A stretch of 64,000 nt of DNA, taken from contig CAZHOH010000001.1 of the NCBI GenBank assembly GCA_964534185.1, positions 19,669 to 83,668 of the forward strand, in the 5' to 3' direction. The translations under genes were made by a program, and so were the position numbers. The notes beneath the pieces are model-generated. The model did not search any database, was not told the origin of the DNA, and worked only from the letters and a program-made list of their open reading frames with translations. This DNA is from Candidatus Woesearchaeota archaeon (GTDB lineage: Archaea; Nanobdellota; Nanobdellia; Pacearchaeales; GW2011-AR1). Of the stretch, positions 1-13,288 are shown one piece after another (the stretch's first letter is position 1; the number at the start of each line of letters is the position of its first letter).

Positions 1-829
1 CGACGACGGAGAATATGATTGAGGTCTCGACTCCTTCCAGCCTTATCATCTTGTCCGCGATGACAGGCAGGCAGTCTCGCTTGGCCGCGGCGATGATCCC
101 GACGGTGCCCACGAACGTGGAGTCGCGCTGCTCCCAGTTCCCGTCCTTGTTTATCTCCTTCTCAAGCTCGAAGAAGTATCGCGGGTAGGGGTACCTCTCT
201 ATCTGACTGAGTTTGGCCCGGTCAATGAAGGCGCTCAGTTCCCTGGACGCCTCCCAGTCCCTGTCAGTGCAGGTGTCAGAGGTAAGGTCCTGCGTGTCGC
301 TGCGGATGCCAAAGAAAAGGGCGGTGGCGACCCTGGGGTCCAAGCTACTGGCGCTGGCGCTGGCGCCATCAGGCGTCTCATCCCCTTCTTCCTCGCGCCG
401 GATATGCCCGACTACCCCCTTGATCATCTCCCAGACGAGGGTGCTGGCCGAGCCAACCTGATCTATGATCGATATGCAATCCTTCTCCGACTCCTCAGAC
501 CTGTGATGGTCAATGACGAGTATGGGGTGGCCCTTCGGCTTGGAGTTAGCCGTCGTCGCGTCGACTATGACACATCCCTGATAGTTGTCGTTGTCATCCG
601 AGTCCTTTATCATCCCGACGTCGAGCGTGTTCAGCATGGTCTTGTTCTGCGGATGGGATATCTCGCCCGTATACAAGATCCTCGCCTTCCTGTCGAACGA
701 GAAGGAAAGCAGCCACTGCATCCCCATGGCCGCGCCGATGGCGTCGGGGTCCGGGGTTCCATGGGTGACGATAGCAACCGGAGAGTCATCAAGCGACCTC
801 AATCTGTCCTTGATCGCTTTTACGTCCAT
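1..829 (-). CDS. DHH-family phosphoesterase (NrnA/RecJ-like); C-terminus runs off the window
   Basis: Absent from the supplied ORF track because no stop lies inside the window. My own minus-strand translation from ATG 829-827 stays open to base 1: MDVKAIKDRLRSLDDSPVAIVTHGTPDPDAIGAAMG...CVIVDATT...ILVIDHHRSEE...VGSASTLVWE. These match DHH motifs I-IV. Plus-strand ORFs 404..850 and 585..857 are antisense shadows. Confidence 0.8.
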   Translation of the reverse strand, partial: MDVKAIKDRLRSLDDSPVAIVTHGTPDPDAIGAAMGMQWLLSFSFDRKARILYTGEISHPQNKTMLNTLDVGMIKDSDDNDNYQGCVIVDATTANSKPKGHPILVIDHHRSEESEKDCISIIDQVGSASTLVWEMIKGVVGHIRREEEGDETPDGASASASSLDPRVATALFFGIRSDTQDLTSDTCTDRDWEASRELSAFIDRAKLSQIERYPYPRYFFELEKEINKDGNWEQRDSTFVGTVGIIAAAKRDCLPVIADKMIRLEGVETSIIFSVV

Positions 830-886
830 GCCTGCCTCGCTTCCCTTTAACTGCTGACACCCTGGGGCAATTCGTCAGGCTACGAC

Positions 887-2461
887 CTAGGTCTCGAACT
901 CGACAAGGTAACGCAAAACGTTCTGGTCTTCTTGATAAACGATCCACTCGTTGTTCATCACATGGCTGTAATTCGCCTTGCCAAACACGCTGTGGCAACC
1001 CCCCGGGGGGGAGGTATACCCGCGCGGGCCTGGAGCCAGGAAGGGTTTCCCGAGGACGACGTCGCCGAGGAACATGAAGGCCTTGCGGCCTCGCACTGCG
1101 CCGCGCCCTCCGGACCAGAACGAGTTCTGTAGGCTACAGTATCCCGCGGCCTTCTTCCAGTCGTCGGCCCAGTACGTTCCAGGTCCGAACATGGCTCCTG
1201 TGATGGCTACGCCCACCAGCTTCTTCGGCATCATCAGGCTCTTGGACAAGATTCCGCTGACATTGACGGAGCGGGTGCCGTGGAACAGCAGGGCGGTTCT
1301 GGAGTCCCTATGGGCCGAGAGCGTCCCGTTCAGGTCGGGTCGCGAGCGAGGCGAGAACATAGGCTTCTCCCGGGAACTGGGCTTCTGCGCGGCAATCTGC
1401 GCCTGCTTGGCGTCGAACCGATGGCGGCAGGTCGGCTTGTTCGCCTCCCAGATGTTATGGACCTTCATTTGCCCAAGTCCCCTGTGGAGGTTTCGCGTCG
1501 CCCGGGGCAGGAAGTCCATGATCCACTTGCCTTCCCCCCGGGGGTCAAGCCAGCGCATCTCGAGGTCTATCCCATCCAGGGGATTGCGGGTCATGTCGTC
1601 GATGTCCTCGAGGCTGGTGGACAAGGCTTGCTCGAACGCGTCAAGGTCCTGTTGCCATGTCAGGATGTTCTTTTGCGACAGAACCCACGTGGACTCGTCC
1701 GCGCCGACGGGCTTGACCTTCGGGATGCGCGAGTAGAGCAGCCGACTGAATTCTCTCAGCCGCTTGTCCTTGACCTGACGGTCAGGGTCGTCGCCTACTT
1801 TCGACAGCCGCTTCAGGGCCTCCGTGAGGATGTGCCTACCTTCGTTGATGGCATCCTGGGTAGGGATGCTGTCGTCCGCCATCGAGTTGCGCGTGTAGTT
1901 GGCGGTCGCTACGTTTAGGTCGTGCATCAACTGCATGACCTTCGGATCCGGCAGGGAGTCCGCGCGCCTCGCCTTGCTCGACTTCTTGGTTTTCTTGGCG
2001 GGAGCGTCTCCCGTCTGAATCTTCTTCGCCCCGGGCAATCCGGTCGACCTGGTTGCCTGCGGGCGGACGAGGTAGCAGTCCTTGCCCTTTTTTGCCCGCA
2101 GGGCCTGTATCCCGGAGATCTTCGTCCATTCTCCGCGCTTGTCATTCTTGCTGTGCAGTTGCTTCTCGTATGCCTTCCGCGCCTCGTCCTCGCACATGGC
2201 CATGACGAACTGGAAGTCCGGACGGGAAGCGCCGGTGCGGCCCCACTCGAAATAGGCGTACCATTCCCCCGTCTGCTTGGATCTGACGACGGCCCCGTGG
2301 TAGAACTTGTTGGTGTCCCGTCCGTCCTGGGTGAAACATCCCAGGTCAGCGACCCCAGTGTCCTCGAACTCCCCATCCTTGACCGCAGGAGGGCCAAAGC
2401 ACTCGAAGTCATCGGGGCCATGGCAAGCAGGAAACTGACGTTTTGGTAGTTTGGTAGCCAT
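887..2461 (-). CDS. poly(ADP-ribose) polymerase-like protein (WGR domain + PARP catalytic domain)
   Basis: 524-aa ORF starting at ATG 2461. WGR motif GEWYAYFEWGRTGAS near the N-terminus. C-terminal PARP fold with an intact H-Y-E triad (LLFHGTRS, GPGTYWADD, NNEWIVYQ). Confidence 0.8.
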   Translation of the reverse strand: MATKLPKRQFPACHGPDDFECFGPPAVKDGEFEDTGVADLGCFTQDGRDTNKFYHGAVVRSKQTGEWYAYFEWGRTGASRPDFQFVMAMCEDEARKAYEKQLHSKNDKRGEWTKISGIQALRAKKGKDCYLVRPQATRSTGLPGAKKIQTGDAPAKKTKKSSKARRADSLPDPKVMQLMHDLNVATANYTRNSMADDSIPTQDAINEGRHILTEALKRLSKVGDDPDRQVKDKRLREFSRLLYSRIPKVKPVGADESTWVLSQKNILTWQQDLDAFEQALSTSLEDIDDMTRNPLDGIDLEMRWLDPRGEGKWIMDFLPRATRNLHRGLGQMKVHNIWEANKPTCRHRFDAKQAQIAAQKPSSREKPMFSPRSRPDLNGTLSAHRDSRTALLFHGTRSVNVSGILSKSLMMPKKLVGVAITGAMFGPGTYWADDWKKAAGYCSLQNSFWSGGRGAVRGRKAFMFLGDVVLGKPFLAPGPRGYTSPPGGCHSVFGKANYSHVMNNEWIVYQEDQNVLRYLVEFET

Positions 2462-2485
2462 TTCTTTCGTCTTCTTTTCCCAGGG

Positions 2486-3373
2486 TTACAATAGCCTGCT
2501 TCCTGTGAACTGCCAGTCCGTGAACAACTTCCCGTCCGGGAAGAAGATCAATTGCCGGATGACGTTCGTATCCGGCTCCAGCGTCAGGCAGTTCGACACA
2601 CAGACGTTTTGTCCCCGGAAGTCATAGACAGCGGCGCCGTGGGGCAGTGTGTAGAGCTTGGTCCCCTCCGTCTGAACATGCTCTTGAATAGCCAGACACG
2701 CGAGATCGCTGAGGCGATTCAAGTCGATCCACTTGTTGACCAACGGACTAGTGGTTGTCGCGTCCCACGCGGGTGTCACGGGCCTCCATGTCAGTTGCTC
2801 GACTTTGTTCTCCAAGCAGAAGTCCACGAGGCGCTCGAAGGCCTTCGGGCCATCAACGCCCCCCTTGATGCCGATCGTGGTATACCTTACGATCAGGCCC
2901 GCGTCATGGGCGCGCTTGATGGCGTCCTTCATGTCAAGGAGCTTCTTCCTCTTTGGCCAGTAGATCCTGTGGTTGAGGTCGGGATCCGATCCGACGTTGG
3001 ATATCATGATGGTAGTCATGCCCGCGCTGTACCAGTCGACAAGCATGTGCCCAACCCGATATCCTCTCCAAGTGGATTCCCCGAGGAACGCGCCGTTCGT
3101 TTGTAGTTCGACGAACGGGAATCGACCCTCGAGTTCCGCCAAGTAGGTGTATATCTGATTCGGATAGAGGGTAGGCTCCCCTTTCCCCGTTATGAGGACA
3201 TTGGTGATGCCGCATCTCTCGGCTATCTGCACCGCCTTGCGCAGGTTCCGTATGTTCAATTCGATCAGAACATCGCAGCCTTTGTTCGTCTCCGTCATGC
3301 GCGACACGCAAAACGGGCACTGCGCGTTGCAGGCCTTGGTCCCCGCGACAAGCGACATCGTCTGAAATTTCAT
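2486..3373 (-). CDS. radical SAM protein (subfamily unassigned)
   Basis: 295 aa. CxxxCxxC cluster motif CNAQCPFC near the N-terminus, followed by ITGKGEPTLYP. Confidence 0.7.
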   Translation of the reverse strand: MKFQTMSLVAGTKACNAQCPFCVSRMTETNKGCDVLIELNIRNLRKAVQIAERCGITNVLITGKGEPTLYPNQIYTYLAELEGRFPFVELQTNGAFLGESTWRGYRVGHMLVDWYSAGMTTIMISNVGSDPDLNHRIYWPKRKKLLDMKDAIKRAHDAGLIVRYTTIGIKGGVDGPKAFERLVDFCLENKVEQLTWRPVTPAWDATTTSPLVNKWIDLNRLSDLACLAIQEHVQTEGTKLYTLPHGAAVYDFRGQNVCVSNCLTLEPDTNVIRQLIFFPDGKLFTDWQFTGSRLL

Positions 3374-3466
3374 CTGACATTCTCCTTATGTTCAATCGTC
3401 GGATGGCGCGGACCCTGTACCCCCCCTACTCCGATCGACGGATACGTCTTCTTGTCCCCTCACGTT

Positions 3467-3673
3467 TTACGGGTCTGCCGCGTGGAGTTCGACGGGGGAA
3501 AGCGATTCGAGAGACACTGCCCCAGCCTTCCCGCGGAGCCACGCCACCTCGCCCCCCGACAACAGGTGGCCTATGTATCGAACCTCGTAGACATTATCGT
3601 CGTGCGGACCGCCGATGATCGGGTGGTAACGTACCTTCTGACCTACACGGCATTCTGACATTTTCACCCCCAT
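3467..3673 (-). CDS. small hypothetical protein (68 aa)
   Basis: ORF with ATG at 3673 and an alternative ATG at 3661. It overlaps the 3' end of the upstream ORF by 80 nt, so one of the two boundaries is uncertain. Confidence 0.4.
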   Translation of the reverse strand: MGVKMSECRVGQKVRYHPIIGGPHDDNVYEVRYIGHLLSGGEVAWLRGKAGAVSLESLSPVELHAADP

Positions 3674-4349
3674 GGTCTTTGGCCAAGTCGGAAACCTCTT
3701 TGGTGCGAGCGTCTTCTTTTCCTAGTTCCTGCTCGCAATAACGCGCGACCTTGACGATCCGTCTGGCAACGAAGTTCTTAAGCCAACTCCTCGTTGCAGG
3801 CAGCGCGTCTAGGTGGCCCATGACTTTGTTCGCATATTCCTGGCCTCCGATCAATACGATTGCGACGGCGGCGTTAGCAACAATGGCACTGAAATACGGG
3901 ATGTCAAGCAGCAGGTCGTTGGCATGAGATGCAAACACCTGAAAAAGAGTTTCCTCCAGGTTCGCATGAATATTGTCGGGGATAACGGTTGCCTTTCTCG
4001 CGACCATCTTGGTCGCCTCGCATACCAGAGCCTGGTTTTTCATGCTCATGAAACGAGCGATCACGTCACAGTCCAATGAACTACGGGAAGCCATCGCAAT
4101 GAAGAGCCTGACGCCTGCGGAGGTAAAAACATTCATGTATTCGTTGTCGCGATGCTTTTCCACGAAACTCACGACAGCATCCCTGAGCGGCTTCTCGCCG
4201 CGAGTCCACAAAGGAGCAAATGAATACATGTTGGCTAGGAACACCCCCTCGGCAGATAGAACCGCCCTGCCCTCCAAAGAGGGGTCAGTCATCTTGCCGT
4301 CAACAAACTGCTCGATTTCCCGCATCATCCGCTCGATTTTATCCGACAT
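3594..4349 (-). CDS. hypothetical protein (251 aa, helical)
   Basis: Long ORF with ATG at 4349, in the same orientation as its neighbours. No motif recognised. Confidence 0.6.
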   Translation of the reverse strand: MSDKIERMMREIEQFVDGKMTDPSLEGRAVLSAEGVFLANMYSFAPLWTRGEKPLRDAVVSFVEKHRDNEYMNVFTSAGVRLFIAMASRSSLDCDVIARFMSMKNQALVCEATKMVARKATVIPDNIHANLEETLFQVFASHANDLLLDIPYFSAIVANAAVAIVLIGGQEYANKVMGHLDALPATRSWLKNFVARRIVKVARYCEQELGKEDARTKEVSDLAKDHGGENVRMPCRSEGTLPPDHRRSARR

Positions 4350-4429
4350 CGTTATCTAGCCCCCGCCGATGAGCCAGAGGTACTCCGCTGGCCCCGGAGA
4401 GTCGTCGAACCGGGGCCAGCGGGACGTTG

Positions 4430-5317
4430 CTACTTGGCGGAAGCCAAATCTGCGGCCGGCTTGCGGACACGAAACATGCTTTCGTCGAACACCCGCGGGA
4501 AAGCCTCGCTCGTGGCGTAGCGGATCTGCTTCATGGGCTGCTCATTGGCCCAGGCGTTCATGGCCTTGACAAACAGCGCCAGCACGTAGTCTCGGAAGCC
4601 GCTGCCGTTGTGCCCCAGGCCCCTGTTGAGCCGAAGGATGGAACGGCGCAGTGCCAGCGACGGGCTGTCGGTCTCGAGGTTCACCCCCGTGGCCACCTCC
4701 TCGATGAAGGCGTCAGCTAGTTCCTCATCGTCCAGCGCGCGCATCAGGACGTACTTGCAGAACGCAGCCTGCGCGAGGCACCCCCCGATCTCGCGAAGGT
4801 ATTTGCCGGCGGGCAGGCGGACTGCGTCCCGGGCCTTCGGATGGCGCTCGAGCACGCTCATGATGTCGACGTTGCCCGCGCGGTTGCGGGCGATGTTCTG
4901 CGACGATCGGTTCTCGTAGCGCCAGATGTACTTCAGCAGCGCGGCCAGCGCGGTGGAGTTCGCCTCGCCCCGTATCTGCATGATGTGGGCCGCGGTCCTG
5001 CCCATGCCGCAGTCGATGGTGGCCTGCGCGTTGTCGTCCGTCACGCCGCGAACGACGATGGTCTCGATGCTCTGGCCTGACTCGATGATCGCTTGCAGAC
5101 GGTGCTGGCCGTCGATCAGATGCCCCTCCTCGTCAAAGGTGATAGTCTGGCCGTTGAAAGACCACTGGTTCATACGCATCTGATCCGCGTAGAACTCGAT
5201 GCGCCTCCGGGAAAGCTTGCGGTTCGCCTCCTGCGTTTCCAGCCACCGCTTGGCCTTGCGAGGTCCGACCTTCTCCCGGTTCGACTTGATGTACGTCCTT
5301 TTCTTGCTTTTGCCCAT
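4430..5317 (-). CDS. ParB/Srx-superfamily protein with DGQHR motif
   Basis: ORF 4430..5419 trimmed to ATG 5317, which has CAGGAG upstream. Motif LIDGQHRLQAI is typical of the ParB N-terminal domain and DGQHR (DndB-like) domains. Confidence 0.65.
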   Translation of the reverse strand: MGKSKKRTYIKSNREKVGPRKAKRWLETQEANRKLSRRRIEFYADQMRMNQWSFNGQTITFDEEGHLIDGQHRLQAIIESGQSIETIVVRGVTDDNAQATIDCGMGRTAAHIMQIRGEANSTALAALLKYIWRYENRSSQNIARNRAGNVDIMSVLERHPKARDAVRLPAGKYLREIGGCLAQAAFCKYVLMRALDDEELADAFIEEVATGVNLETDSPSLALRRSILRLNRGLGHNGSGFRDYVLALFVKAMNAWANEQPMKQIRYATSEAFPRVFDESMFRVRKPAADLASAK

Positions 5318-5414
5318 CTTCAGTCTCCTGTTTTCAAAAAGAAAAATACTATGCCCCAAGCGGGTTCCTCGAATGCGTCTATAATACACAAAATGCGGCG
5401 CACGCACAAGCGTC

Positions 5415-5459
5415 GGCAAAGAGGCCCCGGAGCAACCGGGGCCTCTTTGCCTTATTTTT
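5415..5459. terminator. strong stem-loop with T-tract (intrinsic-terminator-like)
   Basis: Perfect 16-bp stem GGCAAAGAGGCCCCGG / CCGGGGCCTCTTTGCC with a 5-nt loop. TTATTTTT follows it on the plus strand. On the minus strand, which is the sense of both flanking genes, only an A-rich run precedes it. Confidence 0.6.
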
Positions 5460-5492
5460 CAAACTCCTCAACGATAGCACCACCGCTATCGC

Positions 5493-5696
5493 TCAATGCT
5501 CGTTCTTCCGTTTCTCAAAGTAGCCCATCTCATCCGCCAGCGCCCCAATATAGCGCCCGTCCGCGTCAAAGCAGAAATGCGTCTGCGCCACGGAAATGCC
5601 ATGGTCTCCACGGTACACGCCATATTCGTTTCGCCATTCCTCAAGCCCTACTCCCATGCAGGTGAAGAAGGCAACGAATTCCTCGTAGTCCGTCAT
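5493..5696 (-). CDS. small hypothetical protein (67 aa)
   Basis: ORF 5493..5774 begins at a TTG. I trimmed it to ATG 5696 (MTDYEEF...), which has GGGAGC upstream. Confidence 0.4.
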   Translation of the reverse strand: MTDYEEFVAFFTCMGVGLEEWRNEYGVYRGDHGISVAQTHFCFDADGRYIGALADEMGYFEKRKNEH

Positions 5697-5770
5697 CGCT
5701 ATGCTCCCGATGCAACTCACAGTGGCCACCGTAGTGGAAAGCGGGTCACGCTGCCTCCACAGGGAGTGCC

Positions 5771-6562
5771 TCAACTACCGAACCCCCCCATGGCCGTCTG
5801 GCTGAAACTGGCGCCGCCCTGGGACGCGCGTACCGCGCTCTGGCTGAAGACCTGGAAGGCCTTCCTGACTTCGGTCTCGCTGTTGCCAGGGGTCAGGATC
5901 CACTCGTCCTGGACGCCCATCTGCTGGAAGATGCGCTTGAAGTCGGCCCCCGCGTCGTCCTTGATCCCCATGGCGGCAATGATGTGGCACTCCTGCCGCA
6001 ACATGTCCTCGACCAAGGGCTTGACGTCCAAGGCGCTGGATGAGGAGTGCTGGTCCGCTCCGTCGGTAACGATCAGGGTGATCGTCCGGGCCGGCACTCC
6101 AGAGTCCGCGAACTCGCGGTGCTTGGCCATGACCGTGCCCAGCAGGGCGATGGTCTGGTCGTACAGCGGCGTCCCCTTACGCGGGTCGTAGTTCTGCGGC
6201 GTCATGACCTCGGCGTCCTCCAGCTTCCGGTAGGGGAACAGCACGTCCCCGTTGAGATAGCGGGTGTGCGCCAGAACGGCGTCCGTCTGCTTCGATTTCT
6301 TCAGCGCATCCAGAACCAGGTTGTGCCCATCGATGACCGCCTGCTTGTTGCCTGCGAACTGGATCGACCCGCTGTCGTCCGGCATCATCGTCACCAGAAC
6401 GACCTCGCTGGCCTCCACGTCGTCGGCGGAGATGCCCAGACCGGCCTGAATCTGTGCCCCCAGGTCAATGGAGTTCAGGGCCTGCATCGACTGCAGGCTC
6501 AGATCCCCCTCGTCATGGGCTTGCTTGAATACCTCGCCCAAGTCTGCCACGTTGCTGCTCAT
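5771..6562 (-). CDS. von Willebrand factor A (vWA) domain protein, TerY-like
   Basis: Trimmed to ATG 6562, which has GAGGAG upstream. MIDAS motif DxSxS (MMPDDSGSI), plus GTPLY and a later TDGAD. Confidence 0.7.
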   Translation of the reverse strand: MSSNVADLGEVFKQAHDEGDLSLQSMQALNSIDLGAQIQAGLGISADDVEASEVVLVTMMPDDSGSIQFAGNKQAVIDGHNLVLDALKKSKQTDAVLAHTRYLNGDVLFPYRKLEDAEVMTPQNYDPRKGTPLYDQTIALLGTVMAKHREFADSGVPARTITLIVTDGADQHSSSSALDVKPLVEDMLRQECHIIAAMGIKDDAGADFKRIFQQMGVQDEWILTPGNSETEVRKAFQVFSQSAVRASQGGASFSQTAMGGFGS

Positions 6563-6584
6563 GATCGTCTCCTCGTTCGATGAA

Positions 6585-6668
6585 CCCCTCCCCCAACAAA
6601 CTCCGCTGGAACGGCTCGACACAAAAACAGTAAGCGTTGGCACGTTCGATTGGAGTCCGGGGGAGGGG
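6585..6668. other. 10-bp inverted repeat in the intergenic region upstream of the vWA gene
   Basis: CCCCTCCCCC (6585-6594) and GGGGGAGGGG (6659-6668) are separated by 64 nt. They lie in the 128-nt gap between the amidase stop and the vWA start. One arm abuts the vWA ribosome-binding site. Confidence 0.35.
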
Positions 6669-6690
6669 CTCGTATGTCGGTCAGCCTTAG

Positions 6691-7758
6691 CTACAGGCTG
6701 ATGCCATCCCATTCCTCGATGGGCTTGGTGGATCTGACGACATGCATGCCAGCGTCCTTGAATTTCTGGATCGCCGCTACGGCGTCGTCGGTAAAGTCCG
6801 CCACGAACCCTCCCTGGCCGTCAGGGATCGCGACCGAGCTCATGCAGTCCTCCATGATGTAGCACTTGCGCGCCAGGGACTCGTCCTGCGCGCGGATCTC
6901 GCTCAGCAGGTCGTCGATCGTGAACTTGACGCAGTGGCTCGCGGCCTGCCCCGCGATGATGACGGCGTCGCTGTCCAGCAGCGTGTTCAGAAACCGGGTG
7001 TTCTTCTGGCCCACCGGCTTGTGGTCCTGGGTTGCCAGAACCTCCGGGCGCAGGACGGAATAGTTCTCCGTCAGCAGGGCGCCCCCCTTGACCTCCAGAT
7101 CCCCCTTGGAGGACCGGGCGAAGGAATGGAAAGCCCGCGCCTCGGCGACTGTTCCCGCGAGCGCGTGTCCCTCAGAGCCGAGCAGGCAGTGGAAGGGCCA
7201 GAGGTAGAGCTGGTACTTGCCAGCCTTCTCCAGCTCCTGGCAGTAGTGCTTGACGTAGCTGACCAGCCACGTGTAGTTGCCGTTGCACAGCCACTTCGCC
7301 ATGGCGGGGTTGGGATTCAGCTTGCCTTCCGAGATGTCCTGGGTGGAGACGGTCGTGTGCGCGGCCGGGGCCTTGCCGTCCTCGCCGACCCAGAAGCTCG
7401 GGAAGAATACCTGGAACGGGAAGTGAGTGTCCATCGTGCAGGTCACGTCGGTGATGGCGGGGAGGTTCTTGTAGATGAACTCCGCTGTCCGCGCGGAGTC
7501 CTCGATCGCGCCGCGTCCGCCGCGGCCACCTACGTAGAGCGTCCCCTCGGGGAAGCAGAAGTCCTTCTGGGCGTCGATCAGCAGCAGGTGGACGCGGAAT
7601 TTGTCGGCGCCGGACGGAGCCACGCCATGCTTCTTAACCCACTCCTGCGCCTTCTCGAACAACATGGCCTCGTTCGGGCGGTAGCCCCACTTCTCGGCGG
7701 ACTTCGGGTCGTAGAAGTCAGGCAGGGGCAGTTGCTTGACTGGCGTCGCGGTGCTCAT
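6691..7758 (-). CDS. isochorismatase-family hydrolase, nicotinamidase-like
   Basis: Trimmed to ATG 7758, which has AAGGAG upstream. Motifs HLLLIDAQKDFCFPEGTLYV, MDTHFPF, and a catalytic-Cys context IIAGQAASHCVKFT. Confidence 0.65.
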   Translation of the reverse strand: MSTATPVKQLPLPDFYDPKSAEKWGYRPNEAMLFEKAQEWVKKHGVAPSGADKFRVHLLLIDAQKDFCFPEGTLYVGGRGGRGAIEDSARTAEFIYKNLPAITDVTCTMDTHFPFQVFFPSFWVGEDGKAPAAHTTVSTQDISEGKLNPNPAMAKWLCNGNYTWLVSYVKHYCQELEKAGKYQLYLWPFHCLLGSEGHALAGTVAEARAFHSFARSSKGDLEVKGGALLTENYSVLRPEVLATQDHKPVGQKNTRFLNTLLDSDAVIIAGQAASHCVKFTIDDLLSEIRAQDESLARKCYIMEDCMSSVAIPDGQGGFVADFTDDAVAAIQKFKDAGMHVVRSTKPIEEWDGISL

Positions 7759-7769
7759 CTTCTTCTCCT

Positions 7770-9614
7770 TCACTTCAAACTCAGGACGCCAACCTCCTGG
7801 CGCCCGGTGACGTACACGCCATTCTTCCCAGCGAAGAGATGGCAACCTTCATTCACGAACGGCTCCGTGTCGGGGAACTCCTTTTCCACCTCCAGTAAGC
7901 CGCCGTTGTTCCTGATCCGCCTCAAGCCCTCGTCAGAGGCGCTTAGCAGCATCTTGTCAAACGCCCACTTTCCCCTGATTCCGGATAGCCAGGGATGGTC
8001 GGCCTGGTCGGTCTGCTCCGTCGCCAGAACCTCGCCGTGGCGACTGACCACGTGGCATTCGTTGACCTTCCTCTTGCCCTGCTGCGTGCTCACGAAGAAC
8101 CAGCAGCAATGATCCCCGAAAAAGCAGGTCGAGTCTATCAGTTGGCCGCGAACCTTGACGTTGACGGAGTCGTTGATCTTTCCGTTGACGTCGAATACGA
8201 AGGCCACGCTCAACTGGCCGGCGCGATAGAAGCCCAGGCCGAACTCCGGGCCCACCCAGAAGAGGGTCTGGTTCCTCAGCACGTCGCCTATCCTCTTGTA
8301 TCCCAGTATATCATCACGATAGAGTACACCGTCCTGCAACCAGAACTTATCGCGCCCGTTGGCGTCGAATATGGGCAGGTTGCCGTAGAAGTCGACCGGC
8401 AACTGCTCCAACTTGCCATCCTTGTCCACGACCAGCGCCGGCTTCCCGGACATGCCAATGAGAGTCTGATTCCCGCAGATGCGAAAGCGCATCTGGTGAT
8501 GCGCGGACCCCTTGAGGACCTTTACTCCCCCTTCTCTCCAAAAATGTCCGTCTTCCCAATAGAGCCACCTCATCTGGCCATCCTGCATGGCGGCGAACAG
8601 GATGGTTCCCTTCGTGGAGAATATCTTCTTGTATTCCACGTTGCCCTTGACGACCTCCTTAACGAGCGGAACGACCTTCTGGCACTCCGGGCAGGACTTT
8701 CTCGCGTGCTCGAAGCCGCAGCCCGGGCAGACGCGCCACTGCGTGTTCAGCAACTGCAGCGGGAACGGACCCCGCGTGTCCTTCTCGAACACCTGGCGTA
8801 AGTAGTCCGCCAGGTCGTCCGGCAGGGACTTGAGGGGCCGCGCGGGCTTCGGGTACTTGACCTCCGAGTCAAATACCGTGATCCGGTGCAGGGGCCGCGC
8901 CGGGTGGGGCACCTTGCGCTTCTTGTCCTTGGGACGAAAAACCCCCCCGTATGGGTCAACGAACATCAGGGTCTGCATGACCATGACCGCGAAGGCGTAC
9001 CAGTCGGAGTCCTCGTTGTGGGGCCTGACCAGGACGGGCCTGTTCTGGCGCGCGTCGCACAGCAGGGGATCCACGAATCGCTCCGTGTAGACACGGCAGG
9101 GAAACGTCCTGAACTGCCAACTGTCAGCGTCGATGACGTAGGGCGTATCGCCTTTGACGAGGACGTTGAGGTCGTTGAAGTCACCAACCACCGCGTCCTT
9201 CTCGTGGATCGCCTCGACCACCTGGGCCAGTTTCTTCAGAATCCTGTTGACGACATTGTTGTTGACGCCATGCCGGAAGGACTTCTCTCCATAGCGGAGC
9301 AGAGGCTCTGCCCCCTCGACCATGTCCATCACGTAGCCAACGATCTTTCCTTTCCTGTCGGTCGCAACGTCCAGCGGGACGATGACGTTCGACGGCACCC
9401 CCCGGGGGAACTGGGTCAACTTCTGCTGGTGCTCCTCTATGCGAATCCTCGCGGCCTGGCGCTGGTCGACGGTCAGGTGGTCGGGATGGTTCTCTCCCTT
9501 GAAGACTTTGAGCGCGTGACCACCGGGGATCCGGTAGACGTCAGCTTCGCCGCCTTTGCCTATGCTATCGGTAGGAGCAACGCTTATGCGCTTGCTTCTG
9601 ACGTAGACTTGCAT
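7770..9614 (-). CDS. Ser/Thr protein kinase with Zn-ribbon and a repeat-rich C-terminal domain
   Basis: Motifs IGKGGEADVYRI...ALKVFK (Gly-loop and Lys), VVGDFNDLNVLV (catalytic loop) and VIDADSW (DFG-equivalent). These are followed by CPGCGFEHARKSCPEC and about 280 aa of beta-rich sequence. Confidence 0.75.
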   Translation of the reverse strand: MQVYVRSKRISVAPTDSIGKGGEADVYRIPGGHALKVFKGENHPDHLTVDQRQAARIRIEEHQQKLTQFPRGVPSNVIVPLDVATDRKGKIVGYVMDMVEGAEPLLRYGEKSFRHGVNNNVVNRILKKLAQVVEAIHEKDAVVGDFNDLNVLVKGDTPYVIDADSWQFRTFPCRVYTERFVDPLLCDARQNRPVLVRPHNEDSDWYAFAVMVMQTLMFVDPYGGVFRPKDKKRKVPHPARPLHRITVFDSEVKYPKPARPLKSLPDDLADYLRQVFEKDTRGPFPLQLLNTQWRVCPGCGFEHARKSCPECQKVVPLVKEVVKGNVEYKKIFSTKGTILFAAMQDGQMRWLYWEDGHFWREGGVKVLKGSAHHQMRFRICGNQTLIGMSGKPALVVDKDGKLEQLPVDFYGNLPIFDANGRDKFWLQDGVLYRDDILGYKRIGDVLRNQTLFWVGPEFGLGFYRAGQLSVAFVFDVNGKINDSVNVKVRGQLIDSTCFFGDHCCWFFVSTQQGKRKVNECHVVSRHGEVLATEQTDQADHPWLSGIRGKWAFDKMLLSASDEGLRRIRNNGGLLEVEKEFPDTEPFVNEGCHLFAGKNGVYVTGRQEVGVLSLK

Positions 9615-10408
9615 CTTCTCACCACCACTAGCGTCGTGTCGTCCGGCAGCAGGCCCTTCTGCTCTTCCAGAAGACGGTTCTCGTAATCCACCTTGCGCGA
9701 GTTCCTGTTGATCAGGCGCAGCCGTCGAGAGACGGCGAAGGAGTTCCTGAAGTAGCGGTCATCAGCCCAGAACTGGGAGAGAGCGCCAACCTCCTCGCTC
9801 TTCCCCGGGAGTCTCCGGCGCCTGAGTTCCGGGATGTTATCAACCCCGTCGGTCCCGACAAGAATGGACTCGATGTCCGCCGTCTTCCACTCCCAACGAT
9901 CGAAGGCGCTCCTGTCCCGCTGGTCCGGGTTCGTAACCGCGTATCCGATATAGGACGGCGCGTTGTTCTGGTCGATGGAATGAACGACGAGTCCCTCCGA
10001 CAAGGTGCAGCGGTTAATCAGGCCGTCCCCGCACGACAGCACGGTTGTCTTCTCGTCGTCCATGACCAGGACGATGGAGGTAAAGAGGAAGAAATCTGAG
10101 ACGGCACTCGAGAGGCTGTCACTGACCCATTCCGAGACCACGGACAACTTCGAGGCCACCTCCATGCGCAGCCTCTCCTGGTCGACGCGGCCCAGCCTCC
10201 TTTTCTGCGCCCATGCCGACATCACGAGCATGCGGGCCCCGAGCAGCGCGCCTGCCTCGCTATACCTCCCGCTGCCGCAGCCGTCGCACACGGCCGCGAC
10301 AATTAGGTTGTCGTCGGTCTTCCAGAAGTAGGAGTCTTGGTTGTTCCGGCCGGCCATCTCGTGATCGCGGCCCCTGACGCTCCCACCGGCAATTTGGAAT
10401 CCGTTCAC
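9584..10408 (-). CDS. PP2C-family protein phosphatase
   Basis: GTG start at 10408. Motifs RGRDHEMAGRNNQDSYF, AAVCDGCGSG, VGTDGV and DDTTLVVV. It overlaps the kinase start by 31 nt. Confidence 0.75.
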   Translation of the reverse strand: MNGFQIAGGSVRGRDHEMAGRNNQDSYFWKTDDNLIVAAVCDGCGSGRYSEAGALLGARMLVMSAWAQKRRLGRVDQERLRMEVASKLSVVSEWVSDSLSSAVSDFFLFTSIVLVMDDEKTTVLSCGDGLINRCTLSEGLVVHSIDQNNAPSYIGYAVTNPDQRDRSAFDRWEWKTADIESILVGTDGVDNIPELRRRRLPGKSEEVGALSQFWADDRYFRNSFAVSRRLRLINRNSRKVDYENRLLEEQKGLLPDDTTLVVVRRCKSTSEASA

Positions 10409-10504
10409 GGGTCAACTGCTTTCCTAAATGCGGCAACTCGTAGAAGTCACCAAGGATTGGGTTCTTGCCCGCAAGCGCACATGTACGTACGCTTTGACAA
10501 GAAC

Positions 10505-11506
10505 CTAAATGAACTCTACCCCCCGGGGGGACAGGCGAACGCGCCTTATCTTGATCGTCTCGCTCTCGTCAAGTTGCTCTTGCCAAGCATCCCGGGATAG
10601 GTCGATGGTTCTTTTGTCCTCGAAGAGGGCAGGCCCCGAAACCAACTCCAGAGGCACGTCTCCGATGAAGGCCCCCCAGGCCTCCAGCGGCTCGCTCTCC
10701 TCCATTAGTTGGAGCGCGCGGCGGAAGGCTGGCATCAGGCGGGCAATGTAAAACGCCCGGTGAACACCATGTTCGCTGTCGTCCGCAATCATATCCTGCC
10801 AACACACGTCCAGCGTATGTTTGTGTATGCGCAAGAGACAGTCATCCAGCTCTCCCTTGGGCAGGACAGCCGGGGTTGCAACGTTCTCCTGTTCCCGGAG
10901 AACCTTCCACTCCTTGATGATGCGGACGATGGGGTCGCTCGGGGGCTGCTTCTCAAGGTCTTCCTCCATCCACCCTTCATGCGTTGTGGCAAGGTGGTAG
11001 AACTCCTCCATGCTGCAGACGTCACATTCGGACGACTGACGGAGCGCGTCGAACAAGATGTCTCGCATGCGGCTGACGTTGGCGCAGCAGGCGGGCAGGA
11101 TCTTGCTCTCGCATCCGCAAATATCGACCCATGTTATGGCGGCAAGTTGGATGCTGACGGCCCTGAGTTGGCCCTCAAAGTCATGGTCATATATCGGTTT
11201 CAATACGGATTCGTGACGGCTCTCATCTACCTTCAATGCGACGCGCGCATCCATGTTGCGCATGGCCTCGTCGGTTTTGCGCTGCGCGGCCTGGACAGCC
11301 TGGTCTCCCATCTCCTCTACGGTGCGCCGCCCCTTGAAGGTCGCCCGGATCTCGTAGGTCACCCGAACCGCCTCGGCATAGCCGTGGTCCATCAGCCACT
11401 TCAGATCCTCCCACTCGGGATGGCTGCGCTCGGCATTTAACTGCTGCTCGTGAACCAGCCTCCGCAGGGTCGACAGACGTTGCTTCTTCTTCTCAACCAT
11501 GGACAT
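10505..11506 (-). CDS. hypothetical protein (333 aa)
   Basis: ATG at 11506 with AGGAGAA upstream. No motif recognised. Confidence 0.6.
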   Translation of the reverse strand: MSMVEKKKQRLSTLRRLVHEQQLNAERSHPEWEDLKWLMDHGYAEAVRVTYEIRATFKGRRTVEEMGDQAVQAAQRKTDEAMRNMDARVALKVDESRHESVLKPIYDHDFEGQLRAVSIQLAAITWVDICGCESKILPACCANVSRMRDILFDALRQSSECDVCSMEEFYHLATTHEGWMEEDLEKQPPSDPIVRIIKEWKVLREQENVATPAVLPKGELDDCLLRIHKHTLDVCWQDMIADDSEHGVHRAFYIARLMPAFRRALQLMEESEPLEAWGAFIGDVPLELVSGPALFEDKRTIDLSRDAWQEQLDESETIKIRRVRLSPRGVEFI

Positions 11507-11559
11507 TGCGGTTCTCCTAGGCCAACTGGGGCTGTCATGCCTCGCGCTTGACTGTGTTC

Positions 11560-11588
11560 AATATAGACCCCACGGAGATCAAAGGCAA
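11560..11588 (-). promoter_or_regulatory. candidate sigma70-type promoter (-35 TTGCCT, 17-nt spacer, -10 TATATT)
   Basis: Read on the minus strand: the -10 is at 11565-11560 and the -35 at 11588-11583. It sits about 55 nt upstream of ATG 11506. Confidence 0.35.
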
Positions 11589-11664
11589 GTTGGTCTGTAC
11601 AACGAGTCCATGAGGCGCCCTATGACAGCCCGCATTGTCCGCAATCCCAGCTTCAACGTACGAT

Positions 11665-12411
11665 TCACTCAAGGTTTTGATCATCCTGTTGCGGCAGCGG
11701 CAGTGGGCCAGGCGTATATTCAGCCTCGTCATGTTCTCGTCCGCAACAGGCGCACCAGTATGATCCATCGGCAGGGTCAAGATCGATCTGCCCACACTCA
11801 GGACAGCAAGTCGGGACACCACACCAGTCCGTCAGTTCCTCCAGTTCATATTCTCGGCCTATTTCGTCGTAGGCCCTGAATTTCTCGGGCACATGGCAGG
11901 TCCGCTTGACCCGTACAATCCCGTAGTGCCCTCGCCACAACGCGTGGCGCGCAGCATACAGCCCCTCGCATCGTGGCTGATGCTTCATGGGCTCCCATAT
12001 TTCGTCTGCTATCAAATTGCCTGCTTTCTCAAACTCGCCGTCTCGGTTTGCTTCAGCGTCTTGGTTGATTTCCTTGTCGAAAATCATTATGGCATCGACT
12101 TTCCCAGAGACGCATTGCGCCGAGCAGTTCAGGCCTATCCCCTGCGACAAGGCCACTCCCAGCATCGCGGTGTGTTGGCGTTCAGAGGTCTTGATGTGCT
12201 TCGCGGGGGCGTAAACGTATATACATACCTCACACTCAAGATCCTCGAAATTTACAAAGATCTTCTGTGGCCACAAGTTGTTAATGGCCCACTTGCGACA
12301 GACATCTCGCAAGACATTTAGTCTCCTCATCCACTTCCGATCAGCATCCTCATGCCTATGTCTCTTCTGGTACTCTTCCAGCAACTGCAAGATTTCGTTA
12401 GCGTCAGTCAT
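11665..12411 (-). CDS. hypothetical protein with C-terminal zinc ribbon
   Basis: 248 aa with ATG at 12411. It carries CPECGQ...CACCG near the C-terminus. Confidence 0.55.
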   Translation of the reverse strand: MTDANEILQLLEEYQKRHRHEDADRKWMRRLNVLRDVCRKWAINNLWPQKIFVNFEDLECEVCIYVYAPAKHIKTSERQHTAMLGVALSQGIGLNCSAQCVSGKVDAIMIFDKEINQDAEANRDGEFEKAGNLIADEIWEPMKHQPRCEGLYAARHALWRGHYGIVRVKRTCHVPEKFRAYDEIGREYELEELTDWCGVPTCCPECGQIDLDPADGSYWCACCGREHDEAEYTPGPLPLPQQDDQNLE

Positions 12412-12827
12412 TTATTGTCCTTGTAGAGCGGTATGCCATCGGAGCACGCCCCGTCATATTTCTCGGCACAAGACGAACAAACGTCTGCCTCGTAAACCGT
12501 GCCCCAGCAGTTCCAATCTATCCTGCGCTCGGCCACCGCTCCGCAGCAATGACACTTCAAGTCGAGATCCCACTTTCTCTTCGGTACGTAGGAGTGCCAC
12601 ATGAGTCCGTACCTGATGTCAAGGTAGGCCTTGTTCTCCTCTTCTTTCAGGTGCTCCTTGGTGGAACTGGCCGCCGAGAAGAAGTCTGTCGCCTCGACCT
12701 TCCCACGGGCACGACCCAACTTCCAAGCCGCCTCCAGGGCTCTCGCTATAGCCACGGACGAGTCGTCAAGGCCAAACCTCTTTAGCACCATCGGTATTTC
12801 GCGGAATTCCAAGCAATCTAGTTGCAT
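12408..12827 (-). CDS. hypothetical Cys-rich protein (139 aa)
   Basis: ATG at 12827 with AAGGAGG 8 nt upstream. ATGA overlap with the next gene. CHCCG...CSSC cluster. Confidence 0.55.
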   Translation of the reverse strand: MQLDCLEFREIPMVLKRFGLDDSSVAIARALEAAWKLGRARGKVEATDFFSAASSTKEHLKEEENKAYLDIRYGLMWHSYVPKRKWDLDLKCHCCGAVAERRIDWNCWGTVYEADVCSSCAEKYDGACSDGIPLYKDNK

Positions 12828-12927
12828 AATTCATGCCTCCTTACCTATATTATAGCGCGCCTTTTGAAAACAAGAAAGGGCCTCGAACGTTGTATAATTA
12901 AGACGGAGAGTATTAAGGAGTACAACA
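12828..12927. promoter_or_regulatory. divergent promoter region
   Basis: A 100-nt AT-richer gap between divergent gene blocks. TATAAT on the plus strand at 12893-12898. TATAAT on the minus strand at 12854-12849. The -35 elements are weak. Confidence 0.35.
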
Positions 12928-13188
12928 GTGAGTGACACGACGGACAAGAGTTTTCACGACGCGGGGCCGCTCATGCGGCCTCAGGTAAAGACCGACGGCG
13001 GCCCCTGGGCCACCCACAACATGCCCTGCTGCATTCATGCCGATTCGCACGCTGTATACGATCTTGGCACGGGCATATTCCACCCCTCCTGGAAGGCCCA
13101 GAAAGAGGGATGGGCCTTGGTGAAACTGCCCGGCTGGGCATGCTGGCTTCTCAAGAAGTACCGCATGCGGAACGGACCGCCTCGATAG
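12928..13188 (+). CDS. hypothetical protein (86 aa)
   Basis: GTG start at 12928 with AAGGAG 7 nt upstream. Confidence 0.45.
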   Translation: MSDTTDKSFHDAGPLMRPQVKTDGGPWATHNMPCCIHADSHAVYDLGTGIFHPSWKAQKEGWALVKLPGWACWLLKKYRMRNGPPR

Positions 13189-13288
13189 GGTCCGCGCGCC
13201 TTGGAAAGTTACTTGGGTCCGCGCCGGAGCACGGCGGCGTGACACTAAGTAAAAAAGACAGACTTTTGTCTTGACCAAGGAGCGCGCT

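What the first reader, a model, noticed from the sequence alone, without database searches (positions are those of the whole stretch)
1..2461. Catalytically intact WGR-PARP adjacent to a DHH phosphoesterase
The 524-aa protein has a WGR domain and a PARP catalytic domain with the full H-Y-E triad. This predicts NAD-consuming (poly)ADP-ribosylation rather than a degenerate fold.

It is the penultimate gene of the same strand block that contains the nicotinamidase-like gene. The product of one enzyme (nicotinamide) would therefore be the substrate of the other.

The downstream DHH enzyme could process pAp or nanoRNA, or (cyclic) oligonucleotides. WGR-PARPs in prokaryotic or viral genomes are sporadic, and their targets are unknown.
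Basis: partly seen in the sequence, partly recalled or inferred. Interest (0 to 1): 0.65.

Follow-up and report, generated by a model that had tools for sequence, protein, structure and literature searches.

The report
Phage PARP enzyme beside unrelated phosphodiesterase
The window really encodes an intact PARP1-3-like DNA-break-sensing ADP-ribosyl transferase, one of a large family shared by huge phages and Planctomycetota, but its pairing with the neighbouring DHH phosphodiesterase is not conserved, and the recurring neighbours of this family are DNA ligases and ADP-ribosyl hydrolases.

Summary
ORF 887-2461 (-) encodes a 524-aa WGR / helical domain / ART protein with H394-Y430-E505 and the W73-G74-R75 motif. 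All of these are invariant in 61-62 relatives. The structure model superposes full length on PARP1 and PARP2 WGR-CAT. The downstream gene (2-829, cut by the window edge) is an NrnA/GdpP-type DHH-DHHA1 phosphodiesterase.

- **DHH pairing:** none of 70 related PARP loci (30 lineages) has this DHH within 10 kb. In the closest relative of the DHH gene, similarity stops 15 nt before its start codon, and a divergent M50 peptidase lies upstream instead of PARP. None of 9 PARP-bearing phage genomes carries this DHH family. One distant huge-phage lineage does place a DHH 1-2.5 kb from a different WGR-PARP.
- **Nicotinamidase:** the gene is real, but it lies 4.2 kb away behind a 16-bp hairpin and is never near PARP in relatives. 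It does share a genome with PARP in 2 of 9 PARP-bearing phage genomes.
- **Recurrent neighbours:** DNA ligases occur near PARP in 8 of 30 lineages, and ADP-ribosylglycohydrolases in 8 of 30.

WGR-PARPs in bacteria and jumbo phages are already in the literature. This is a new member of a known kind, of modest interest.

The parts
887..2461 (-). PARP gene, 524 aa (ATG 2461-2459, TAG 889-887): WGR / helical domain / ART ADP-ribosyltransferase
   Evidence: ORF. Pfam WGR and PARP. 794 homologues at 53-59% identity. AF2 model with pLDDT 78; Foldseek top hits are PARP1 and PARP2 WGR-CAT.
2138..2335 (-). WGR domain (aa 43-108 by Pfam), with W73-G74-R75
   Evidence: Pfam PF05406, E 1.8e-6. G74 and R75 invariant, W73 in 59 of 62.
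1598..1945 (-). Helical domain (aa 173-288), structural counterpart of the PARP regulatory (HD) domain. It follows a Lys-rich disordered linker (aa 146-172).
   Evidence: DSSP helices H173-193, H202-222, H233-245 and H266-281 in the model. PARP1 HD+ART chains align over about 400 columns, TMt 0.61-0.66. Pfam PARP_reg itself is not detected.
890..1474 (-). ART (PARP catalytic) domain, aa 330-524, with H394, Y430, E505, Y441 and the unusual Ala438
   Evidence: Pfam PF00644, E 8e-21. Alignment to PARP1. Residue counts.
2..829 (-). N-terminal 276 aa of a DHH-DHHA1 phosphodiesterase (NrnA/GdpP/CnpB type), cut by the window edge. Not functionally tied to PARP on present evidence.
   Evidence: Pfam DHH, E 9e-11. 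PDB NrnA, E 3.6e-6. Family profile matches GdpP, NrnA and CnpB at E about 1e-14. Full-length relatives are 335-390 aa, many with DHHA1.
830..886 (-). 57-nt PARP-DHH spacer with a purine-rich RBS-like stretch. No terminator-like site was found, so co-transcription is plausible. The synteny breakpoint versus the nearest relative lies at 844.
   Evidence: Sequence. Terminator scan. blastn of L071 against the window.
2486..3373 (-). Radical SAM protein (295 aa, CxxxCxxC), 24 nt upstream of PARP; not found near PARP in relatives
   Evidence: Pfam Radical_SAM, E 1.6e-10. Only weak MoaA, viperin and QueE core hits. Absent from all 70 loci.
5415..5451 (.). Perfect 16-bp GC-rich hairpin directly after a stop codon, followed by about 120 nt of intergenic sequence. 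Likely transcript boundary between the nicotinamidase block and the PARP block.
   Evidence: Terminator scan. Sequence.
6691..7758 (-). Nicotinamidase-like cysteine hydrolase (about 355 aa from ATG 7758), 4.2 kb upstream of PARP
   Evidence: 3858 homologues at 60-65% identity, named nicotinamidase in Myxococcales and Planctomycetota. Motifs align to M. tuberculosis PncA D8, H71 and C138. AF2 plus Foldseek top hits are nicotinamidases.

Best explanation
The window is most likely part of a huge-phage genome. Gene 887-2461 is an accessory gene encoding a genuine PARP1-3-type enzyme.

Proposed mechanism: the WGR domain recognises a DNA break or nick. This releases the autoinhibitory helical domain, and the H-Y-E ART domain then uses NAD+ to ADP-ribosylate itself, partner proteins or the DNA end. 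In relatives the mark is erased by an ARH-family hydrolase, and the system sits next to DNA ligases. This points to sensing or processing of breaks in phage DNA during replication, recombination or nuclease attack.

The DHH-DHHA1 phosphodiesterase next to it is a separate phage nucleotide or oligonucleotide phosphodiesterase that is adjacent only in this genome. The nicotinamidase is a separate transcription unit. At most it helps at genome level, by removing the PARP product and inhibitor nicotinamide.

Shown: domain architecture, invariant catalytic residues, family distribution and neighbour statistics. Inferred: DNA-dependent activation, NAD+ use, the target, and the repair role.
For: Architecture and residues.

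Strong purifying selection: mean column identity is 56% across phage and bacterial members, with the H-Y-E and WGR residues invariant.

Distribution: 26 IMG/VR contigs, 18 of them 160-533 kb, and 36 GTDB genomes, 35 of them Planctomycetota. The window protein groups with phage loci L002-L006 in an NJ tree and lacks the Ala/Lys-rich N-terminal tail of the bacterial copies.

Neighbours in 30 dereplicated lineages: a DNA ligase within 10 kb in 8, immediately adjacent in L001, L002, L003, L022, L035 and L057. ARH within 10 kb in 8. Either one in 13. DHH, nicotinamidase and radical SAM in 0.

In the cultured planctomycete Lignipirellula cremea, PARP is followed directly by RuvC.

The DHH is independent. 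Its homologues sit between DnaB and a PolA/gp32 block, or next to a NUDIX gene, in other phages. The synteny break lies at window position 844. One contig carries both genes about 170 kb apart (L028 and L096). No INPHARED genome carries both.

Phage-like context: PHROG hits, RNA-repair genes, methylases, LigA and many ORFans.
Against: There is no biochemical evidence.

Ala438 replaces the otherwise conserved nicotinamide-binding Ser.

No ARH, and no ligase closer than 31 kb, is present in this window.

Most lineages (17 of 30) have neither ligase nor ARH nearby, and many loci share inherited synteny, so the counts overstate independent events.

No capsid, terminase or tail gene lies in the 64 kb, so the phage origin is itself inferred.

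One distant huge-phage lineage (L104 and L107) also places a DHH-DHHA1 gene 1.1-2.5 kb from a different WGR-PARP. A loose PARP-DHH link is therefore not excluded.

The model has low confidence around the active-site loops (aa 409-453).
Confidence: 0.6

Rival explanations
1. One reading: PARP, the DHH enzyme and the nicotinamidase form one NAD+-consuming module. PARP releases nicotinamide for the nicotinamidase, and the DHH enzyme processes an ADP-ribose-derived or (cyclic) oligonucleotide product.
For: PARP and DHH are co-directional and 57 nt apart, with no terminator-like site between them. A second, distant huge-phage lineage has a DHH-DHHA1 gene 1.1-2.5 kb upstream of another WGR-PARP, and these are the only two genes that locus shares with the 64-kb window. 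This window has no ARH, so another eraser would be needed. Nicotinamidase and PARP share a genome in LR756511 and LR756500, although each gene is rare (4 and 9 of 50,697 records).
Against: None of 30 PARP lineages has DHH or nicotinamidase within 10 kb. The nearest DHH relative (88% nt identity) has an M50 peptidase upstream, not PARP. None of the 9 PARP-bearing phage genomes has this DHH family, and none of the 4 DHH-bearing records has PARP. A hairpin and four to five genes separate the nicotinamidase from PARP. In the two genomes that carry both, the genes lie 44-55 kb apart. The extra DHH-PARP proximity is one lineage, roughly p = 0.1 by a crude estimate.
Confidence: 0.15
2. A host-takeover transferase. 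Like T4 Alt, ModA and ModB, the phage PARP modifies host proteins (RNA polymerase, translation factors) to redirect the cell. DNA sensing would be irrelevant or used only for localisation. This is the reading offered for jumbo-phage PARPs by Iyer et al. 2021.
For: Phage ARTs commonly act this way, and this role has been suggested for jumbo-phage PARPs (PMC7824862, read). The gene sits in an accessory region alongside a kinase/PP2C pair and a sigma factor.
Against: The complete WGR motif and helical domain are retained under strong conservation. Ligases are adjacent, and RuvC follows PARP in a bacterium. Orthologues at 50-56% identity in Planctomycetota chromosomes cannot be host-takeover factors.
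Confidence: 0.15
3. A weakened or non-catalytic copy. The Ser-to-Ala change at the nicotinamide-binding position has crippled NAD+ binding, and the protein acts only as a DNA-end binder.
For: Ala438 replaces a Ser present in 57 of 61 relatives. No close orthologue above 59% identity exists, which suggests a fast-evolving lineage.
Against: H, G, Y, Y and E are all retained. Three other family members also carry Ala at this position. The full-length ORF is intact with high GC3 (0.80), typical of the window's genes.
Confidence: 0.07

Closest known systems
Eukaryotic DNA-damage PARPs (PARP1 C-terminal WGR-HD-ART module, PARP2, PARP3)
   Same: Same three-part architecture, W-G-R motif and H-Y-E triad, with NE[YW]IVY around the catalytic Glu. 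The full-length model superposes on PARP1 and PARP2 bound to DNA breaks, with Foldseek E down to 7e-17 and TM 0.5-0.6.
   Different: Only 16-20% identity. No zinc fingers or BRCT. Pfam PARP_reg is not detectable. A conserved about 40-aa N-terminal extension is packed onto the WGR domain. Ala stands at the S904 position. The gene is viral, and the nearby eraser in relatives is an ARH rather than a PARG.
Bacterial WGR-PARPs (Herpetosiphon aurantiacus, Clostridioides difficile CD160; PMC5966428, PMC8120803)
   Same: WGR plus a helical domain plus PARP_cat, often without a Pfam-detectable PARP_reg. H-Y-E triad. Patchy, HGT-like distribution.
   Different: Those surveys list six phyla and 72 sequences and do not mention Planctomycetota. 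This family is centred on huge phages and Planctomycetota. The characterised bacterial PARPs are paired with PARG, whereas here relatives pair with ARH and DNA ligase. Direct sequence comparison with HaPARP or CdPARP was not possible with these tools.
PARPs annotated in cultured large phages (Klebsiella vB_KpM_FBKp34, Xanthomonas XacN1 and Xoo-sp13, Stenotrophomonas CM1 and RAS14)
   Same: Phage-encoded WGR-PARP_reg-PARP proteins of about 420-430 aa. The catalytic domains are 33-44% identical to the window protein.
   Different: A different subfamily; only the C-terminal 25-32% of the query aligns. They have a canonical PARP_reg and different neighbourhoods, with no ligase, ARH or DHH annotated within 8 kb.
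NrnA / GdpP / CnpB DHH-DHHA1 phosphodiesterases (for the downstream gene)
   Same: DHH motifs I-IV conserved. The family profile aligns over the full length with the GdpP catalytic domain and CnpB-type PDEs and over the DHH domain with NrnA, all at E about 1e-14.
   Different: In full-length relatives the DHHA1 GGGH motif reads GGK. Relatives lie in phage genomes, in replication or nucleotide-metabolism neighbourhoods. The substrate is unknown.

Membership tests
PARP1-3-type DNA-dependent PARPs (WGR-HD-ART) | WGR domain with the Trp-Gly-Arg motif | tested here: met
   Pfam WGR, E 1.8e-6, 28.4 bits against a cut-off of 22. W73-G74-R75 present. G and R are invariant and W occurs in 59 of 62 relatives.
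PARP1-3-type DNA-dependent PARPs (WGR-HD-ART) | Helical regulatory (HD / PARP_reg) domain between WGR and ART | tested here: met
   Met by structure only. The model has helices across aa 173-288, and HD+ART chains of PARP1 and PARP3 align over about 400 columns. Pfam PF02877 gave no hit.
PARP1-3-type DNA-dependent PARPs (WGR-HD-ART) | ART fold with the H-Y-E catalytic triad | tested here: met
   Pfam PARP, E 8e-21. H394, Y430 and E505 align to PARP1 H862, Y896 and E988 and are invariant in relatives.
PARP1-3-type DNA-dependent PARPs (WGR-HD-ART) | Nicotinamide-pocket Gly, Ser and Tyr (PARP1 G863, S904, Y907) | tested here: not met
   G395 and Y441 are present. The Ser position is Ala438 in the window, but Ser in 57 of 61 relatives.
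PARP1-3-type DNA-dependent PARPs (WGR-HD-ART) | DNA-break-stimulated NAD+-dependent (poly)ADP-ribosylation | not testable with these tools
   This needs an enzyme assay. Mono- versus poly-ADP-ribosylation cannot be read from the sequence (PARP3 has H-Y-E but is a mono-transferase, PMC5725667).
Reversible bacterial PAR system (PARP plus PARG) | A dedicated eraser gene (PARG, macro or ARH) linked to the PARP | tested here: not met
   phmmer finds no ARH homologue in the 64-kb window. Macro and PARG domains were not searched for specifically. Most of the larger window ORFs were scanned with Pfam and none showed one, but several small ORFs were not scanned. ARH lies within 10 kb in 8 of 30 related lineages.
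DHH-DHHA1 phosphodiesterases (NrnA/GdpP type) | DHH motifs I-IV (DxD, D, DHH, D) | tested here: met
   PDPD, VDAT, IDHH and GIRSDT in the window fragment, invariant in the family alignment. Pfam DHH, E 9e-11.
DHH-DHHA1 phosphodiesterases (NrnA/GdpP type) | DHHA1 domain with the GGGH motif | tested here: inconclusive
   The window ends before this region. The 91%-identical P0121 has SGGKMG in place of GGGH. Pfam DHHA1 is recorded for a minority of the homologues listed.
Nicotinamidase (PncA/Pnc1, isochorismatase-like cysteine hydrolases) | Catalytic Asp-Lys-Cys triad and Asp/His metal site | tested here: met
   LLIDAQKDF, MDTH, WPFHC and ASHCVK align to M. tuberculosis PncA D8, D49/H51, H71 and C138. 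D62, D110, H112, H190, C276 and K224 are invariant in the family. Assigning K224 as the catalytic Lys is inference. Fold hits 1-5 are nicotinamidases. Pfam and NCBIfam scores are below their cut-offs.

The most novel reading that the evidence does not exclude
Huge phages (and Planctomycetota) carry a PARP-ligase-ARH break-handling module in which the WGR-PARP ADP-ribosylates DNA ends themselves (5'-phosphates, as PARP2 and PARP3 do in vitro; PMC5861426, PMC5725667). This would mark, protect or prime phage DNA ends for the adjacent ligase, with ARH as the eraser. Because the Planctomycetota clade is nested among phage clades, this viral lineage could be a source of cellular PARP1-3-like break sensing. 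In the window's lineage, which lacks an ARH, the adjacent DHH-DHHA1 enzyme might have taken over processing of the ADP-ribose-phosphate adduct.
Probability: 0.12. Interest if true: 0.75.

Novelty: new member of a known kind. Interest (0 to 1): 0.38.

Why it matters
None of the papers read here reports biochemical work on a phage-encoded PARP. This family is large, tightly conserved and easy to express. It offers a minimal WGR-HD-ART enzyme, with natural ligase and ARH partners, for asking what PARP-type break sensing does outside eukaryotes, and whether DNA rather than protein is the target. For the specific claim handed on (a PARP-DHH-nicotinamidase NAD module), the main result is negative. 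The adjacency is lineage-specific and should not be used to infer the function of either gene.

Tried and rejected
1. Looking up the window's own PARP on its source contig to read beyond the left edge: no gene with this product is on record.
2. megablast of window 1-12000 against the phage collection: no match.
3. Unbiased clustering of all ORFs around 68 PARP loci, to find conserved neighbours beyond ligase and ARH. The top clusters were antisense shadows of PARP or clade-specific proteins with no informative Pfam match: six without any hit, plus single Metallophos, HEAT_2 and Aldolase_II hits.
4. PADLOC: no defence-system match for PARP or DHH, and only weak radical-SAM-core hits to pVip for the upstream gene.
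5. tRNA and Rfam scans of the window: nothing.
6. A search for more members of the second (L107-type) PARP family in IMG/VR. The single-protein query found only itself, and the alignment was too divergent to search with.
7. ParB/DUF262-like genes as a shared third component between the window and L107: phmmer found no homology.
8. The DHH-like hit near PARP in the Pirellulaceae locus L063. It is the host's canonical NrnA (TM1595-like), on the opposite strand and in one locus only, so I treated it as chance.
9. Phage hallmark genes in the window: none were found among the larger unknown ORFs.
Full report
**What is in the sequence**

The minus strand of window 1-13278 is one run of co-directional ORFs. 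ORF 887-2461 starts with ATG and ends with TAG, and encodes 524 aa. Pfam places a WGR domain at aa 43-108 (E 1.8e-6) and a PARP catalytic domain at aa 330-496 (E 8e-21), both above the curated cut-offs.

phmmer against all PDB sequences finds PARP1, PARP2 and the tankyrases. It aligns LLFHGTR, GPGTYWADD..KxAGY and NNEWIVY to the PARP1 motifs that contain H862/G863, Y896, Y907 and E988. In window numbering the triad is H394, Y430 and E505, and the WGR motif is W73-G74-R75.

The next gene starts at ATG 829-827, 57 nt after the PARP stop, and runs off the left edge after 276 codons. It carries DHH motifs I-IV and hits Pfam DHH at E 9e-11.

**Placement of the PARP**

I built an AlphaFold2 model on a 25-sequence alignment (mean pLDDT 78, pTM 0.69). 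It shows a beta-rich N-terminal domain, a disordered Lys-rich linker (aa 146-172), a helical bundle (aa 173-288) and the ART fold.

The best Foldseek matches in PDB are full-length superpositions of about 540 columns. They fall on the WGR-HD-ART chains of human PARP1 bound to a double-strand break (8g0h, 7s6m, 4dqy) and on PARP2 (7aeo, 6x0l), with E values from 7e-17 to 5e-14. Catalytic-fragment entries of PARP1, PARP3 and PARP4 follow.

So the protein has the PARP1-3 architecture, including a structural counterpart of the autoinhibitory helical domain, although Pfam PARP_reg is not detected. Sequence identity to the eukaryotic enzymes is only 16-20%.

**One blemish in the active site**

The serine that hydrogen-bonds the nicotinamide carboxamide in PARP1 (S904) is Ala438 here (codon GCC). 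It is Ser in 57 of 61 relatives and Ala in 4. The low model confidence over aa 409-453 prevents a structural judgement. I treat the enzyme as probably active, possibly with altered NAD+ affinity.

**The family**

- The word-indexed database returns 794 proteins at E ≤ 1e-5, and the best non-self hits are only 53-59% identical.
- The exhaustive search of 50%-identity representatives gives 72 clusters at E ≤ 1e-30 and 387 at E ≤ 1e-10.
- The alignment is unusually tight, with mean column identity 56%.
- Related loci come from 26 IMG/VR viral contigs, 18 of them 160-533 kb, and from 36 GTDB genomes. All but one of those genomes are Planctomycetota (Pirellulaceae, Gemmataceae, Planctomycetaceae).
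- The best hit in GenBank phages is the 595-kb uncultured phage LR756511.
- Bacterial copies carry an Ala/Lys/Pro-rich N-terminal tail that the phage copies, including this one, lack.
- In a neighbour-joining tree, the window protein groups with the phage-like metagenomic contigs L002-L003 and the CRISPR-carrying huge-phage contig L004-L006. The Planctomycetota sequences form one clade nested among the phage clades. No support values were computed.

**Origin of the window**

The rest of the window fits a huge-phage accessory region:

- PHROG families, and two DNA methyltransferases (a C-5 cytosine methylase and a PHROG DNA-methyltransferase hit)
- a Pnkp-like kinase-phosphatase-RNA ligase, and an RlaP gene
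- a sigma-70 factor
- an SbcD-like exonuclease
- an NAD-dependent DNA ligase
- many ORFs without any family hit

No structural gene falls in the 64 kb, so the phage origin is inferred rather than shown.

**Is the PARP-DHH pair conserved?**

I searched the window's neighbours with phmmer against six-frame ORFs of 70 related PARP loci. After dereplication at 70% PARP identity these form 30 lineages. None has the DHH, the radical SAM protein or the nicotinamidase within 10 kb.

The closest relative of the DHH gene is on contig L071 (88% nt identity, 91% protein identity). Its similarity to the window ends at position 844, 15 nt before the DHH start codon. Upstream it has a divergently oriented M50 peptidase fragment, with no PARP.

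The same metagenome holds a contig (L072) collinear with window 8468-4868 at 85-90% identity. So a close relative of this genome exists. Yet no PARP above 59% identity is present in 5.8 billion proteins. PARP therefore looks like a variable accessory gene in this lineage.

In GenBank phages, PARP occurs in 9 records and this DHH family in 4, with no overlap. One IMG/VR contig carries both genes about 170 kb apart (L028 and L096).

There is one caveat. Among 33 IMG/VR loci retrieved with the DHH family, one lineage places a DHH-DHHA1 gene 1.1-2.5 kb upstream of a different, canonical WGR-PARP_reg-PARP on the same strand. This lineage comprises L104 (259 kb) and L107 (545 kb), which are mutually syntenic. 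These are the only two genes that L107 shares with the whole window. It is a single extra event. By a rough estimate (my inference) it has about a 0.1 probability by chance, so a loose link is not excluded.

**What the DHH is**

Full-length relatives are 335-390 aa, and a minority of those listed carry a recorded DHHA1 domain. A family profile matches the following at E about 1e-14:

- the GdpP c-di-AMP phosphodiesterase catalytic domain and CnpB-type cyclic-dinucleotide PDEs, over nearly the full length
- NrnA and the N-domain of family II pyrophosphatases, over the DHH domain

The canonical GGGH motif of DHHA1 reads GGK in the 91%-identical P0121.

In other phages the gene sits between DnaB and a PolA/gp32/5'-3' exonuclease block, or next to a NUDIX gene near a T4-type portal. 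DHH phosphodiesterases have already been proposed as jumbo-phage counter-signalling enzymes (PMC7824862).

**The nicotinamidase**

ORF 6691-7845 probably starts at ATG 7758. It scores below threshold in Pfam and NCBIfam. It nevertheless belongs to a family of more than 3800 proteins that NCBI names nicotinamidase, at 60-65% identity to Myxococcales and Planctomycetota.

Its motifs align with M. tuberculosis PncA D8, the metal ligands and C138. All of these are invariant in the family. The five best fold matches of its model are nicotinamidases from Acinetobacter, Leishmania and yeast.

The gene is real, but it lies 4.2 kb and four to five genes upstream of PARP. A perfect 16-bp hairpin follows a stop codon at 5415-5451, and about 120 nt of intergenic sequence lie beyond it. 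No relative has it near PARP.

At genome level there is a signal. Only 4 of 50,697 phage records carry this family, and two of them (LR756511 and LR756500) are among the 9 with PARP. The genes lie 55 and 44 kb apart in those two genomes. Genome size and relatedness confound this. Still, a role in removing the PARP product and inhibitor nicotinamide remains plausible. That role is an inference from nicotinamidase biology, not a tested result.

**What does travel with this PARP**

- A DNA ligase lies within 10 kb in 8 of 30 lineages. It is immediately adjacent in six loci: ATP-dependent in L001 and L022, NAD-dependent LigA in L002, L003, L035 and L057.
- An ADP-ribosylglycohydrolase lies within 10 kb in 8 of 30 lineages, in both phage and Planctomycetota loci.
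- The ARH next to the LR756511 PARP matches DraG-type and ARH3-type hydrolases about equally.
- In Lignipirellula cremea, the gene after PARP is RuvC.

A ligase at a random position in a 300-500 kb genome would fall within 10 kb about 5% of the time (my estimate). Six of 18 phage lineages is well above that, though shared ancestry inflates the count.

This window has LigA 31 kb away (33597-35585) and no ARH.

**Mechanism proposed**

By analogy with PARP1-3, the WGR domain binds a nick or break. The helical domain then unfolds, and the ART domain transfers ADP-ribose from NAD+ to itself, to partners or to the DNA 5'-phosphate. PARP2 and PARP3 perform that last reaction in vitro, and ARH3 reverses it (PMC5861426; PMC5725667).

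Architecture, residues and neighbourhoods are shown. Activation, target and role in phage DNA maintenance are inferred. I put 0.6 on this reading, with the DHH adjacency being incidental.

**Novelty**

Bacterial WGR-PARPs are described, and two were shown to be active (PMC5966428, PMC8120803). PARPs in jumbo phages have been noted and even drawn as DNA-damage sensors (PMC7824862, PMC9503650, PMC11662467). Cultured phages such as Klebsiella vB_KpM_FBKp34 and Xanthomonas XacN1 carry annotated copies.

Not described in the papers I read are the size of this huge-phage and Planctomycetota subfamily and its ligase and ARH neighbourhoods. This is a new member of a known kind, of modest interest.

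Noticed in passing
window 49579-63099 (-): Low-GC island (46-50% against about 59% elsewhere) of about 14 co-directional sugar-modification genes: UDP-GlcNAc 2-epimerase, SASA sialate-O-acetylesterase-like, FkbM methyltransferase, sulfotransferase, DegT aminotransferase, GNAT, RmlD-like reductase, two GT2, PseB/FlaA1-like dehydratase and GT6. It looks like a horizontally acquired glycan or nonulosonic-type sugar pathway in a phage-like genome.
   Followed up: partly
window 15822-18065 (-), 13271-13933 (+), 44962-46032 (-): RNA-repair set: a Pnkp-like P-loop kinase / metallophosphatase / T4-Rnl1-type RNA ligase fusion (747 aa), a small RNA-ligase-like protein, and an RlaP nucleotidyltransferase.
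   Followed up: no
window 7770-10408 (-): A 614-aa protein-kinase-like protein with a zinc ribbon overlaps a PP2C phosphatase gene just upstream of the nicotinamidase. The kinase-to-nicotinamidase stretch is collinear at 85-90% nt identity in a relative (L072).
   Followed up: no
window 5415-5777: A perfect 16-bp GC-rich hairpin (5415-5451) sits right after the stop of a 93-aa ORF (5493-5774). The 333-nt segment 5445-5777 that holds this ORF is absent from the otherwise collinear relative L072, so it is an indel.
   Followed up: partly
window 1148-1150 (codon of Ala438 in the PARP gene): The nicotinamide-binding Ser conserved across PARPs (PARP1 S904) is Ala here (GCC). Only 4 of 61 family members share this change.
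   Followed up: partly
L104 5914-9422 and L107 5950-10924: Two syntenic huge-phage contigs (259 and 545 kb) carry a DHH-DHHA1 gene and, 1.1-2.5 kb downstream on the same strand, a canonical WGR-PARP_reg-PARP of another subfamily. In L107 a DUF262/GmrSD_N gene directly precedes the PARP. In L104 the WGR part is a separate ORF.
   Followed up: partly
L035, L044-L066, L073 (Planctomycetota loci); alignment A1 columns 1-145: Bacterial members of the PARP family carry an Ala/Lys/Pro-rich, histone-H1-like N-terminal tail of 60-140 aa that is absent from phage members. The bacterial clade is nested among phage clades in an NJ tree. In L. cremea, PARP is followed by RuvC.
   Followed up: partly
L004 14960-21617: A 374-kb huge-phage contig with an orthologous PARP carries a type I-E-like CRISPR-Cas cassette (Cse2, Cas7, Cas5, Cas6e, Cas3, Cse1) starting 3.3 kb downstream of the PARP.
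   Followed up: no
L001 1165-2238; L011, L013, L018: A PRPP-synthetase-like gene lies 8-10 kb upstream of PARP in four huge-phage loci. A cREC domain protein lies in L074. These may be NAD+/ADPr metabolism genes clustering with PARP.
   Followed up: no
window 2486-3373 (-): A radical SAM protein sits 24 nt upstream of PARP, with only core-motif similarity to MoaA, viperin and QueE families. It is not found near PARP elsewhere, and its function is unknown.
   Followed up: partly
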